A stretch of 64,000 bases of DNA, taken from positions 67,394,001 to 67,458,000 of the forward strand of contig OX597816.1 of assembly GCA_951406725.2 (NCBI GenBank), given 5' to 3'. Shown here one piece after another: positions 508-49,865 of this stretch. The position numbers were made by a program, and so were the translations under genes. Positions within the stretch are counted from its first letter, which is position 1. Each line of letters begins with the position of its first letter. Source of the DNA: Octopus vulgaris. Its lineage: Eukaryota. Below the pieces are notes generated by a model. That model worked only from the letters and a program-made list of their open reading frames with translations. It was not told the DNA's origin and searched no databases.

Positions 508-1278
508 AAATAAGTCCAACAAATATGACCCCACATGGTTTCCATTTCGTTATTTCGTTTTATTCACAAGACTTTGTAGAAGACATTTGACCACGTGCTG
601 CCTAGTGGGATCAAACCTGAAACCATGTAACTGAGAAGCAAACATCTACTAACCACATGGCCAAGTCCAAAACGGAGAAAAAGAAGAAGAAAAAACTGAA
701 GTTGTACTGGATGTTCTGGTGTAGTTAATACAAGCAGCCAGAAATTACTTGAAAGACTTGCTGGAAGATGCAGATAAGTTCTGTGAGTCACATGACACAC
801 TTATAAATTGGGAGTGGAAGTATAAAATAGTACAATCAGTAGTTAGAGCTTGAAGCAAAAAGGAGTTTAATGGGATGCTAATATTTAACAACAGAGATAT
901 TCTCTTTGGTAAACTAAGCAAAAAAAAACTATAGGTTTTACATTGCATGATAGTGAAACACAGACAATAAATTTAATGGATGTATATGATTGAAGAGAAA
1001 CAAGTTGGGTATGAACAACCATTTATATAAAATATATACCTAGTAGGAATGTTGGGTCAAGATGTGAAGGAGTTAATAATGTAAACCAATATACATACAG
1101 AGGAGGTAAGTAATGAATGATGCAGACCAGATGAAAAGTAAAGCAACAAAAGATCTGAATGGAATAATCAGATTTTACTCTAGAGCATTTGAGCTGATAG
1201 AACATGGATTAATGTTGTATGATAATTTCTGTCATCATGAATAAAGTCTTTTAAAAATAATGACGGTAATTTACTTAC

Positions 1279-1440
1279 ATTTTTTCAATAAGATCTTTCT
1301 CATCTAGGGCTCTGGGCAAATCTCGTTTGTTTCCCAACACCAACACAGGAATACCCTGTAATTGTGGCTTGTCTAGTAAATTATGCAACTCATTTCTTGA
1401 TGCCTCCGTCTTCTCCAGGTCAGCGGCATCTACCATATAA
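1279..1440 (-). CDS. ARL8: ARL8 next coding exon: (V)[53 protein letters not shown](M)
   Basis: Manual translation (absent from ORF track) contains the G4 motif NKRD. Acceptor ttaattctAG at 1442-1441, donor GTAAGT at 1278-1273. Phase joins the 23347 exon in frame (GT|T TAT). 162 nt. Confidence 0.96.
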
Positions 1441-23220: not shown

Positions 23221-23346
23221 TCTGAATACAGAATTTAAGTGTATAACTAAATACTGTAAAGACATCAGTTTTTGCACTGAAACCACTATTCAATACCTTC
23301 TTTTAATGAAAAAAAGTAAGAAGAAATTTATGCATTCTATACTTAC

Positions 23347-23501
23347 ACAATGGCATTGACTCCTCGACAGTATCGTTCCCACATACTACGGAATCTTGGC
23401 TGACCACCAATATCCCATAACTTGATTGTCACATTCCCTTTAGTAATCTTTCTCATATTGAAACCAACTGTTGGAATCATATCTTCACTGAACTGACCAG
23501 A
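23347..23501 (-). CDS. ARL8: ARL8 coding exon (switch I/II region): [51 protein letters not shown](V)
   Basis: Translation near-identical to animal ARL8A/B. Acceptor tgtttccAG before 23501, donor GTAAGT after 23347. 155 nt, ends phase 2. Confidence 0.97.
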
Positions 23502-28223: not shown

Positions 28224-28499
28224 TGTTGTGTCTGGGGAGAGTCATTTTCGTTTTGTGCCTTATTATGTAACACACTCACCAGTAGAATTTCCACTTTTTC
28301 CACTCTAGAGTCAAGTCTATTGAAAAAGTTGCAAGATGCAACAAAAATTTTAGGACAATAAAAATAAGAAAAAGGTGGAAATTTCACTGGTGAGTGTGTT
28401 AAATTATAAGGCACAAAAAGAAAATGACTCTCCCCAGACACAAGAGAATATGCTTCAACATACAAACTCATATAAAGAATCTTGCAAACCAAAAACAAA
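28224..28499. mobile_element. Fold-back insert with 15-bp target-site duplication
   Basis: atatgactattttat at 28209-28223 and 28500-28514; internal ~75-bp inverted arms at 28226-28298 and 28369-28443; related sequence near 1552-1640. Confidence 0.75.
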
Positions 28500-44599: not shown

Positions 44600-45061
44600 A
44601 TATATACACATATAGTCTGCTGGAATGAATTGATAAGCCCACATATAACATCCAAAGGTACATTGTTTTTTGCTCTGATGAAATTATACTCATGTCACAT
44701 AAATGTAAATTTAATGTACAAATTTGTAATTAAATTGAGTATTAATTGAAATAGCTGAAAGAAGCGAAGATGAGCAGTGTGGTAAGTCGCTTGCTTACCA
44801 ACCACATGGTTCCGGGTTCAGTCCCACTGTGTGGGACTTTGGGCAAGTGTCTTCTTCTATAGCCTCAGGCCGACCAAAACCTTGTGAGTGGATTTGGTAG
44901 ATGGAAACTGAAAGAAGGCTGTCGTATATATATATATATATACAATAAAAGCAATTAAGATTCAAGTCAATTCTAATGAATTCACTTGAATGCGGTACTT
45001 AACTTAGATGCACCAGAAAACTATATGGTGTTAACCATACAGTAATGTGGGGTAATTATAA

Positions 45062-45302
45062 ACGAGAAAGAAGCAACAAGAATGGATTAGTTTTTAGTAC
45101 AATTGTTTCATACAAAGACAGGCTTTATTAAAAGTTGCAAATATTGCAGCAGATAAAAGTGTCCCGTACTCATCAGCTTGTGTTTTAGCTGATGAGTACG
45201 GGACACTTTTATCTGCTGCAATATTTGCAACTTTTAATAAAGCCTGTCTTTGTATGAAACAATTGTACTAAAAACTAATCCATTCTTGTTGCTTCTTTCT
45301 CG

Positions 45303-45303
<1 letters not shown>
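45062..45303. repeat. Perfect 117-bp inverted repeat with 8-nt loop
   Basis: 45062-45178 is the exact reverse complement of 45187-45303; loop tgtgtttt. Confidence 0.97.
45183..45273 (+). ncRNA. Type-I hammerhead ribozyme with intact core
   Basis: ttttag-CTGATGA-[long stem II gtacgggaca...tgtctttgtat]-GAAA-caattg-TA-ctaaaa. 6-bp stem I, palindromic stem III, GUA site at 45265-45267. Confidence 0.8.
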
Positions 45304-45334
<31 letters not shown>

Positions 45335-45657
45335 CAACCCATGCTAGCATGGAAAGCGGACGTTAAACGATGATGATGATGATGATGATATGTATATGTA
45401 TATATATGTTTGTGTGTGTTTGCCCCCCCCAACATCACTTGACAACCGATGCTGGTGTGTTTACGTCCCCGTAACTTAGCAGTTTGGCAAAAGAGACCGA
45501 TAGAATAAGTACTAGGCTTACAAAGAATAAGTCCTGGGGCCGATTTGCTCGGCTAAAGGCGGTGCTCCAGCATGGCCGCAGTCAAATGACTGAAACAAGT
45601 AAAAGAGAGTAAAGAGTAATAAACAATTAACTTCCTTATCTCCATTTTCTTTTAAAT

Positions 45658-47752: not shown

Positions 47753-48165
47753 CTGGCGCATATTGCACATATTCTACTGTACACTGAACATTTGCAATTA
47801 ACTGTTGTATATGTTATGTGACATTACCAGGTCACCGTTATCGCTTCTATTCCCTTAATTACATTGTTAAGAGTTTATGAAAATTACTATGTTTGTTTTA
47901 CATCTGTTTTTCCATGCTAATATTGGTTAGATGAATATATTATTGAGGCATTACTTTATAGATAAATGCCTTTCATGGTGCTAGCTCTTACCAGTTTTTA
48001 AAGTAAGGAATCTCTTGTTCTTAGAAGTTACAAAGTCAGTGGATGATTTGTTTACAGGAGAAACGACACAATGTTACCACTTGTATCCAGTGATTTTGGA
48101 GAAGTGCAAATGTTAACAGACCAAACACACCCACACAGGTGTGTGTGTGTGTATGTATATATATA

Positions 48166-49749
48166 TATCATAGTCCTCCAGGCAATAACGGAGGAATTCA
48201 AGACAGGATGCCCCTGGGAGCTCCTCTATGCTGATGACCTTGCTCTAATTGCTGAGTCACTATCAGAACTGGAGGAGAAGTTTCAGGTGTGGAAGCAAGG
48301 ATTAGAATCGAAGGGTCTTAGAGTCAATCTAGCTAAAACCAAAGTCCTAATAAGTAGGAAGGTAGACAAATCACAAACGCCTTCAGGTAGATGGCCCTGC
48401 TCGATCTGTAGAAAAGGTGTAGGTAGAAACTCTATAAGATGCACCAAGTGTAAGCTATGGACACATAAGAGGTGCAGCAATGTCAAAGGAAGGCTAACTA
48501 GGAAGATGGTTTTTGTATGTGGCAGATGCTCGGGAGTATTAACCTCTGAAAATCTGCAGAAAACAACTTCCGTCACTTTCCAGGGGGAAAAACCAGAAGT
48601 AGTTGATAGCTTCCGTTAGTGGGGGTGGGTGTGCTGAAAGTGTAATGGCTAGAGTAAGAATAGCCTGGACAAAGTTTAGGGAGCTCTTACCTCTGCTGGT
48701 GACTAAAGGCCTCTCGCTCAGAGTAAAAGGCAGACTGTATGATGCATGTGTACGAACAGCCACGCTACATGGCAGCGAAACATGACTGCTGAGGACATGC
48801 GTAAGCTTACGAGAAATGAAGCCTGTATGCTCCGATGGATGTGTAATGTCAGTGTGCACGCTCGACAGAGCGTTAGTACCCTGAGAGAAATGTTGGACCT
48901 AAGGAGCATCAGTTGTGGTGTGCAAGAGAGACGATTGCGCTGGTATGGTCATGTGGCAAGAATGGATGAAGATAGGTGTGTGAAAAAGTGCCAATCCCTA
49001 GCAGTGGAGGGAACCCGTGGAAGAGGTAGACCCAGGAAAACTTGGGACGAAGTGGTGAAGCACAACCTTCGAACTTTAGGTCTCACTGAGGAAATGACCA
49101 GCGACCGAGACCTTTGGAAATATGCTGTGCGTGAAAAGACCAGGCAGGACAAGTGAGCCCAGCCCACTTATGCATGCCTTTCCTCCCTTGGACACACAAA
49201 GACCTGTTGAGGCAAGCGAAGTCAATATCGAACCTCATCCGACGACAGGCACCTATGCCAACCCCCCTTTGCTTGCGAAGACCTGTTGGGGCAAGTGAAA
49301 TCGAAATCGGAATCAAAATTGAACCAATCCTATGACTGGCACCCGGCAGATGCCAGGACCCCTGGACTGGAGATACGTAAAAAGCACTATCCGAATCGTG
49401 GCCGTTGCCAGCGCCGCCTCGACTGGCTTCCGTGTCGGTGGCATGTAAAAAGCACCATCCAAATCATGGCCGAAGCCAGTGCCACCTTGACTGGCTTCCG
49501 TGCAGGTGGCACGTAAAATGCACCAATCCGACCGTGGCCGATGCCAGCCTCGCCTGGCACCAGTGCAGGTGGCACGTAAAAAGCACCCACTACACTCACG
49601 GAGTGGTTTGCGTTAGGAAGGGCATCTAGCTGTAGAAACATTGCCAGATAAGACCGGAGCCTGGTGCAGCCTTCTGGCTTCCCAGATCCCCGGTCGAACC
49701 GTCCAACCCATGCTAGCATAGAGAATGGACGTTAAACGATGATGATGAT
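48166..49749 (+). mobile_element. 5'-truncated RTE-clade LINE: RT (YADD) pseudo-ORF with C4HC3 finger, thumb region, 3' UTR and (GAT)n tail
   Basis: PWELLYADDLALIAES..GLRVNLAKTK..; RRLRWYGHVARM..GRGRPRKTW; frameshifting deletions near 48616 and 48783. Confidence 0.93.
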
Positions 49750-49750
49750 A

Positions 49751-49865
49751 TATCATCGTTTAATGTCCGTTTTCCATACTAGCATGGGTTAGACGGTTTG
49801 ACTGGGGTCTGGGAAGCCAGGAGGCTGCACCAGGCTCCAGTCTCATTTGGCAGTGTTTCTACGGT
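49751..49865 (-). mobile_element. RTE 3' terminus, tail-to-tail with the preceding copy
   Basis: Reverse complement of ~49628-49750. Confidence 0.85.

What the first reader, a model, noticed from the sequence alone, without database searches (positions are those of the whole stretch)
44943..45303. Intact hammerhead ribozyme locked inside a perfect 117-bp hairpin, inserted in a SINE's (TA)n tract
Seen: a 361-bp insert between two (TA)n runs ends in a perfect 117-bp inverted repeat with an 8-nt loop. The right arm plus loop forms a complete type-I hammerhead (CUGAUGA, long stem II, GAAA, palindromic ACAAUUGU, GUA site, 6-bp stem I). The left arm gives a minus-strand copy with only 2 bp of stem I. 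Established: Penelope-like element pseudo-LTRs carry minimal hammerheads with palindromic stem III that probably act as dimers, and often show inverted terminal duplications. Inference: this is a recent PLE/retrozyme fold-back insertion. In ARL8 pre-mRNA it would be a perfect dsRNA (ADAR/Dicer substrate) that masks the ribozyme.
Basis: partly seen in the sequence, partly recalled or inferred. Interest (0 to 1): 0.75.

Follow-up and report, generated by a model that had tools for sequence, protein, structure and literature searches.

The report
Folded-back Penelope retrotransposon end with hammerhead
This hairpin is an ordinary stub of a common Penelope-type jumping gene: two copies of its tail end sit head to head in a TA repeat, and the complete copy of its likely self-cutting RNA motif lies on the strand opposite to the host gene.

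Summary
The 117-bp perfect inverted repeat, 8-nt loop, hammerhead motif and SINE (TA)n site are confirmed. The insert is an extremely 5'-truncated, two-armed copy of a young, ORF-bearing Hydra-clade Penelope-like element (RT, RWK, DKT, CxCX5C, GIY-YIG). It is not a retrozyme. At least 219 insertions share one of its ends exactly. All 42 head-to-head pairs examined have one short end and one end 120 nt longer. Seven other loci fold back as tightly. The stems covary across three families. ARL8 runs on the minus strand, so its pre-mRNA would carry only the copy with a 2-bp stem I; the intact ribozyme is antisense. Arm ends do not pile up at the cut site (3 vs 2.8 expected) but do inside loop 2 (26 vs 7). 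The layout is published, and this scan found it before on other DNA in this genome. Mildly unusual: a 60-nt helix II/loop 2 and the 120-nt tail. Cleavage, editing and read support for the junction are untested.

The parts
44774..44942 (+). 5' half of the host SINE, ending in the left (TA)n run
   Evidence: Collinear with the 3' half in 37 hit pairs in the fetched DNA (3 of them are this locus), median gap 22 nt. The SINE class label is recalled; ARAGORN finds no tRNA.
44943..45062 (-). 120-nt 'tail' of the long arm, between the two fixed 3' ends of the element
   Evidence: Present on exactly one arm in 42 of 42 head-to-head pairs; length
44943..45178 (-). Long arm: 3' end of a Hydra-clade Penelope-like element, cut 2 nt upstream of the hammerhead core; sense to ARL8
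   Evidence: 98-100% identical to 40 other places; junction mapped
45098..45178 (-). Minus-strand hammerhead copy with only 2 bp of stem I (predicted inactive)
45179..45186 (+). 8-nt hairpin loop; native element sequence belonging to the short arm; blunt junction at 45178/45179
45179..45303 (+). Short arm: same element end, from 10 nt upstream of the core to the short 3' end; antisense to ARL8
45183..45273 (+). Complete type-I hammerhead motif (stem I 6 bp, core 45189-45195, 60-nt helix II/loop 2, GAAA 45256, palindromic stem III, predicted cut after 45267)
45303..45330 (+). Right (TA)n run
45331..45389 (+). Short piece of another abundant repeat with a (GAT)n tail, in the same TA tract
   Evidence: Its first 42 nt match 15 other places in the window
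45388..45616 (+). 3' half of the host SINE
23346..23501 (-). ARL8 coding exon 2. Exon 1 lies about 2.1 kb beyond the window end (L079:2187-2065), so the insert is mid-intron 1 (about 42.6 kb), about 21 kb from either splice site

Best explanation
The insert is a severely 5'-truncated, two-armed copy of a young Hydra-clade Penelope-like retrotransposon, likely made when both strands of a nicked (TA)n target primed reverse transcription from two fixed sites 120 nt apart and the two short cDNAs were joined head to head. Shown: family identity, ORF-bearing parents, TA target, one short plus one long end per two-armed insertion, and junctions at many positions. Inferred: the two-strand priming and end-joining steps, and an uncut RNA template. 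The hairpin is a by-product of both arms stopping 8 nt apart just upstream of the pLTR hammerhead. The hammerhead likely belongs to the element's own life cycle (dimer- or protein-assisted cleavage). At this locus it is likely inert: the intact copy is antisense to ARL8, the sense copy lacks stem I, and either strand would fold into the 117-bp duplex.
For: Family: 2808 candidates, 40 scored, 41 near-full matches at 98-100%; 219 exact short-end insertions, control 0. Parent ORF: RT motifs, CxCX5C linker, GIY-YIG, RWK and DKT in L041, matching the Hydra definition (PMC8557442 section 11 passages). 289 protein relatives; named ones are from Argonauta and corals. Two-end rule: 42 of 42 pairs. In 90 of the 219 taken in coordinate order, 47 had an adjoining inverted arm: 39 long, 4 ran off the fetched DNA, 4 other, 0 short. 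Junctions in 33 loci: 14 overlap, 9 blunt, 10 with inserted bases; arm offsets 0-2769 nt. All 90 short arms reach or cross the cut site; no excess of ends there (3 vs 2.8). Precedent: inverted pLTR with the tail on one arm (PMC3846280 passages); tail = interval between two RT start sites, uncut RNA as main substrate (PMC11167929 parts 1-2). Covariation: 5 of 12 pairs change on both sides, 95.7% of cells paired vs 21-52% when slid.
Against: No raw or long reads cross this junction; among the contig pieces shown from five runs none spans the loop. Two-strand priming is inferred from geometry only; Arkhipova 2013 explains inverted junctions by self-priming on an antisense template. Pfam gave only a sub-threshold GIY-YIG hit (E 0.0013) and nothing for the 783-aa L043 frame. 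No phylogeny with reference Hydra proteins was built. The covariation set is 8 sequences from only 3 lineages. 43 of 90 short arms had no adjoining inverted arm, so two arms are common but not obligatory.
Confidence: 0.85

Rival explanations
1. Single-cDNA fold-back: one reverse-transcription product stalled, self-primed and copied itself back, giving the inverted arm.
For: The arms here are 100% identical. 14 of 33 junctions show overlaps of 2 nt or more. Arm ends pile up at +15..+40, which holds a near-palindrome. Self-priming was proposed for Penelope inverted junctions (PMC3846280).
Against: Here the short arm holds 8 nt of element sequence that the long arm lacks, so it cannot be a copy of the long arm's cDNA; the junction is blunt. 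Copy-back gives no obvious reason for the second arm always to stop at one fixed site 120 nt before the first arm's end.
Confidence: 0.2
2. A functional riboswitch-like lock: the hairpin in ARL8 pre-mRNA is an ADAR/Dicer substrate that controls a self-cleaving ribozyme.
For: The perfect 117-bp duplex is predicted on the ARL8 strand (-203.7 kcal/mol) and is the most perfect inverted repeat in the window part of intron 1.
Against: The ARL8 strand has no complete hammerhead. The insert is very young and about 21 kb from both splice sites. The intron has 34 other inverted pairs. Family junctions often destroy the motif: only 61 of 90 short arms and 18 of 43 long arms keep full stem I.
Confidence: 0.04
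3. The palindrome is an assembly or library artefact (chimeric fold-back read).
For: No contig shown from five public runs spans the loop.
Against: The insert is asymmetric in exactly the family's manner (tail on one arm, native loop, TA on both sides, SINE halves in order). Near twins exist elsewhere, e.g. L127 with arms ending at -1 and -9, and L025. Contigs drop rare variants and break in a repeat this abundant.
Confidence: 0.04
4. A non-autonomous retrozyme (tandem 200-600-nt hammerhead repeat spread by rolling circle).
For: The insert itself is short, non-coding and hammerhead-bearing; retrozymes are reported to derive from PLE pLTRs (10.64898/2026.07.22.740005 passages).
Against: Upstream sequence of longer copies runs continuously into an RT-EN ORF over more than 3.6 kb. 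No tandem unit was seen at this locus.
Confidence: 0.03

Closest known systems
Hydra clade of C-terminal EN+ Penelope-like elements (Craig et al. 2021, PMC8557442; passages, Files S1/S2 part 2 and alignment excerpts read), e.g. Hydra-1_Obim, Penelope-13_HM
   Same: RWK, DKT, CxCX5C linker, CxxC and CxH around the EN end, (TA)n target, 3' type-I hammerhead with short palindromic stem III. G-U at 10.1/11.1 also occurs in Hydra-1_oBim, Penelope-13_HM and -17_HM. Penelope-13_HM has a 5'-truncated inverted copy with the hammerhead on both strands.
   Different: Helix II/loop 2 is 60 nt versus 12-26 nt in the Hydra rows of File S2 (my count). The tail is 120 nt versus the 30-40 nt described for PLEs. 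The element exceeds 3.9 kb with Asn-rich inserts and a long 3' region versus generally under 3 kb. By eye it is a different family from Hydra-1_Obim.
Adineta vaga Penelope elements with inverted pLTR and optional tail (Arkhipova et al. 2013, PMC3846280; passages read)
   Same: Head-to-head inverted pLTR, tail on one of the inverted ends, palindromes at junctions, Asn-rich inserts between RT and EN.
   Different: Different family and host; 31-bp tail; target-site duplications are visible there but hidden in (TA)n here.
Poseidon_Ac (Frangieh et al. 2024, PMC11167929; parts 1-2 of 4 read)
   Same: Two internal RT start sites bracket the tail, both target strands are cut and extended, and uncut RNA is the main template. 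This matches the two fixed ends and the lack of ends at the cut site.
   Different: Poseidon clade. Inverted products were not addressed in the parts I read. Its hammerhead overlaps the ORF start.
Minimal hammerheads of metazoan PLEs (Cervera and de la Pena 2014, PMC4209133; parts 1-2 of 4 read)
   Same: Type I, palindromic stem III suited to dimers, dispersed in truncated copies; pairs on opposite strands 100-700 bp apart were already reported.
   Different: No extra nucleotide between A9 and 10.1, G-U instead of the usual G10.1-C11.1, much longer loop 2.

Membership tests
Hydra-clade PLE | Single ORF with RT and C-terminal GIY-YIG endonuclease | tested here: met
   783-aa frame in L043 and 672-aa frame in L048; weak Pfam GIY-YIG
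Hydra-clade PLE | RWK motif, and DKG changed to DKT | tested here: met
   L041 (both) and L043 (DKT)
Hydra-clade PLE | CxCX5C linker instead of CX2-5CxxC; CxxC and CxH beside the conserved E and N; no CCHH | tested here: met
   Read from the translations of L033, L037, L040 against the definition
Hydra-clade PLE | Insertion into (TA)n | tested here: met
   219 short ends followed by TA (by pattern); long ends followed by TA
Hydra-clade PLE | Generally short (<3 kb) | tested here: not met
   Copies span more than 3.6 kb without reaching the ORF start; a tendency in the paper, not a diagnostic
Hydra-clade PLE | Groups with Hydra in an RT phylogeny | not tested
   Reference proteins were only viewed in the supplement
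EN+ PLE insertion layout | Inverted 5'-truncated copy with the tail on one end only | tested here: met
   42 of 42 pairs; 39 long, 0 short among 47 adjoining arms
Type-I hammerhead ribozyme | Core CUGANGA, GAAA, NUH in type-I order | tested here: met
Type-I hammerhead ribozyme | Stems I-III supported by compensatory change | tested here: met
   5 of 12 pairs change on both sides across 3 families; stem III pairs do not covary
Type-I hammerhead ribozyme | G10.1-C11.1 pair | tested here: not met
   G-U here; G-C in most sister-family copies; G-U has precedent in Hydra
Type-I hammerhead ribozyme | Self-cleavage | not testable with these tools
   No excess of genomic arm ends at the cut site; no raw RNA reads offered
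Non-LTR retrozyme | Non-coding, tandem units with one hammerhead each | tested here: not met
   ORF-bearing parents; no tandem unit here
Neptune-clade PLE | CX2-5CxxC linker and CCHH motif | tested here: not met
   Linker is CxCX5C

The most novel reading that the evidence does not exclude
This family gives a clean genomic record of how Hydra-clade Penelope elements integrate. Both target strands prime on uncut RNA at two fixed sites 120 nt apart, and the cDNAs stall or join preferentially inside a greatly enlarged (60-nt) helix II of the hammerhead. The ribozyme's fold, not its cut, shapes the insertions, and this long-helix-II variant is a working ribozyme that standard descriptors miss.
Probability: 0.35. 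Interest if true: 0.5.

Novelty: new member of a known kind. Interest (0 to 1): 0.24.

Why it matters
The locus itself matters little: it is one of hundreds of young stubs and is unlikely to act on ARL8 beyond adding one intronic dsRNA. The family is more useful. How Penelope-like elements make inverted insertions is stated as open (PMC8557442). The strict one-short, one-long rule, the lack of ends at the ribozyme cut and the junction hotspot in loop 2 give concrete predictions for an in vitro system. Each such insertion also creates a perfect dsRNA, which could matter in an animal lineage known (recalled) for heavy A-to-I editing, but that was not tested.

Tried and rejected
Rfam scan: 20 hits at E<=5, mostly miRNA-type hairpin models, all below gathering score, no hammerhead. 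Unconstrained folding of single arms gave z 0.28, 0.75 and -0.57 and not the hammerhead fold. I first took the parent for Neptune; rejected after reading the clade definitions. An apparent pile-up of junctions at the 5' strand of stem I (-15..+2) in the first 30 loci was a selection effect of my query: 4 vs 3.8 expected in the unselected sample. A cluster of 16 'ends' at -224/-226 is an internal duplication in one subfamily; 17 chained arms were censored at -226, two of them (L193, L210) needlessly. Two pairs scored short+short are long ends with an internal deletion, and look like one locus held twice. Contigs of five runs (X1, X2, X3, X4, X6) neither confirmed nor excluded the junction or an empty site; both tables were cut. 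No raw RNA reads were offered, so editing and small RNAs were not tested. Loci L129-L158 were fetched but not analysed. No copy with a tandem 5' pLTR was found among the 12 long loci. Paper searches listed no paper on this family or on twin priming in PLEs; only listings were seen for papers not cited, and the library lacks most subscription journals. Supplements of the bioRxiv retrozyme preprint were not seen.

Full report
Observation. The window shows a perfect 117-bp inverted repeat (45062-45178 and 45187-45303) around an 8-nt loop. It ends a 361-bp insert between TA runs. Those runs separate two halves of a SINE that are collinear in 37 hit pairs in the fetched DNA (3 are this locus), with a median gap of 22 nt. 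A 59-nt piece of another repeat shares the same TA tract. The plus arm has CUGAUGA at 45189, GAAA at 45256, ACAAUUGU, a GUA site cut after 45267 and a 6-bp stem I. The minus copy keeps 2 bp of stem I. The first stem II pair is G-U, and 60 nt lie between the two core halves. The hammerhead fold costs 5.7 kcal/mol over the best fold of the lone arm and about 130 kcal/mol against the hairpin. Rfam finds no hammerhead among 20 hits.

What it is. The insert is repetitive: 2808 candidates, 40 scored, 41 near-full matches at 98-100%, and 219 exact copies of the short end followed by TA. Longer copies run upstream into an ORF with RT motifs, Asn-rich stretches, a CxCX5C linker and a GIY-YIG domain, with RWK and DKT near the N terminus. 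These are the stated marks of the Hydra clade of Penelope-like elements, which target (TA)n and carry 3' hammerheads (PMC8557442 passages and Files S1/S2). The RT region has 289 relatives; the few named ones are from Argonauta and corals, so the host is probably a cephalopod (inference). I built no phylogeny. A sister family about 75% identical has the same layout. On 8 sequences from 3 families, 5 of 12 hammerhead pairs change on both sides and 95.7% of cells pair, against 21-52% for slid controls. With three lineages this is supportive, not a formal test.

Anatomy of insertions. The element has two fixed 3' ends 120 nt apart. Among 103 ends in the loci head-to-head pairs were found, and all have one short and one long end (40 by script, 2 by inspection). 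19 ends had no partner in the fetched DNA, and 30 loci had been picked with a tail-containing query. In a sample free of that bias (the first 90 of 219 in coordinate order, this locus left out), 47 had an adjoining inverted arm: 39 long, 4 running off the fetched DNA, 4 other, none short; 43 had none. Junctions in 33 loci were overlapping (14), blunt (9) or with inserted bases (10), with arm offsets from 0 to 2769 nt. This locus is the small end of that range: arms stop at -2 and -10 from the core and join bluntly. Eight loci genome-wide match a tight head-to-head pattern, control 0; L127 stops at -1 and -9.

Where arms stop. All 90 short arms reach or cross the predicted cut. Ends at +75..+84 number 3 against 2.8 expected, and at -15..+2 4 against 3.8. 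Ends at +15..+40, inside loop 2 and over a near-palindrome, number 26 against 7.0 (Poisson P 3e-8). That window was chosen after seeing the data, paired arms are not independent, and 17 arms were censored. Only 61 of 90 short arms and 18 of 43 long arms keep a full stem I, so an intact ribozyme in a stub is incidental.

Host gene. Exons at 23346-23501 and 1278-1439 (minus strand) match Arf in Pfam, and the first matches ARL8A/B in PDB (E about 1e-31). Exon 1 lies 2.1 kb past the window end, also minus. The insert is in the middle of a 42.6-kb intron 1. ARL8 pre-mRNA would therefore hold the hairpin and the 2-bp-stem-I copy; the complete motif is antisense. The window part of that intron has 35 inverted pairs of 100 nt or more, 6 within 2 kb, this being the most perfect. 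Transcription, editing and small RNAs were not testable.

Mechanism. Most likely (about 0.65 for the steps, above 0.9 for the identity): the element's protein nicks both strands of (TA)n, each 3' end primes reverse transcription of uncut RNA, one at each fixed site, both stop early, and the cDNAs are end-joined head to head. This joins published pieces: both-strand cutting, two internal start sites bracketing the tail and uncut template (PMC11167929 parts 1-2); inverted pLTR with one tail (PMC3846280 passages; PMC8557442). Simple copy-back of the long arm cannot give this locus, because the short arm has 8 nt the long arm lacks. An artefact is unlikely given the family-typical asymmetry, but no contig piece shown from five runs spans the junction.

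Comparison and verdict. Opposite-strand hammerhead pairs in truncated PLEs were reported in 2014 (PMC4209133 parts 1-2). Penelope-13_HM, a Hydra element, has an inverted copy, hammerheads on both strands and the same G-U pair. Earlier notes of this scan describe the same layout on other DNA of this genome and long helix II motifs in other genomes; they are unchecked AI notes and not counted as support. What differs from print, as far as searches reach, is quantitative: 60-nt helix II/loop 2 (12-26 nt in the published Hydra rows), a 120-nt tail, and the junction statistics. New member of a known kind; interest 0.24.

Noticed in passing
Family-wide, +15..+40 from the hammerhead core (window 45204-45229): Arm 5' ends pile up inside loop 2 of the hammerhead, 26 vs 7.0 expected, over a near-palindrome.
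   Followed up: partly
L161, L165, L167 and others (16 of 90 loci): A subfamily carries an internal duplication of about 106 nt upstream of the hammerhead, joining -120 to -226.
   Followed up: partly
L032:7303(+), L062, L075:2030(+), L077:346(+): Other hammerhead-like motifs with 43-64 nt between the core halves turned up in flanks with a loose descriptor; no chance control was run.
   Followed up: no
L049-L078: Sister family (2675 candidates) with G-C at 10.1/11.1, covarying stems and the same short/long ends and tight hairpins.
   Followed up: partly
L021, L122, L123: Junctions hold short tandem re-copies of the stem I/core region, suggesting repeated template re-engagement.
   Followed up: no
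L005 (G000:C8:102950863-102951576): Two near-identical two-armed insertions side by side in one TA tract, with slightly different junctions.
   Followed up: no
L126 (G000:C12:33081507): A palindrome of at least 150 bp per arm from an unrelated hammerhead family, folded 4 nt upstream of its core.
   Followed up: no
L043, L037, L048 ORFs: Long Asn-rich inserts between RT and endonuclease, as described for rotifer Penelope elements.
   Followed up: no
L040:3004-1967 (minus, oriented): A second, divergent Hydra-type endonuclease end lies next to a copy of this family.
   Followed up: no
window 48047-49156 (+): Broken ORFs resembling an RTE-type LINE reverse transcriptase (label recalled) in ARL8 intron 1.
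   Followed up: no
window 49632-49862 and 28226-28443: Two further imperfect local palindromes (86% and 75%) in the same intron.
   Followed up: no
L091 (C57) and L104 (C13): Same insertion with the same tail deletion on a chromosome and on a small contig; probably one locus assembled twice.
   Followed up: no
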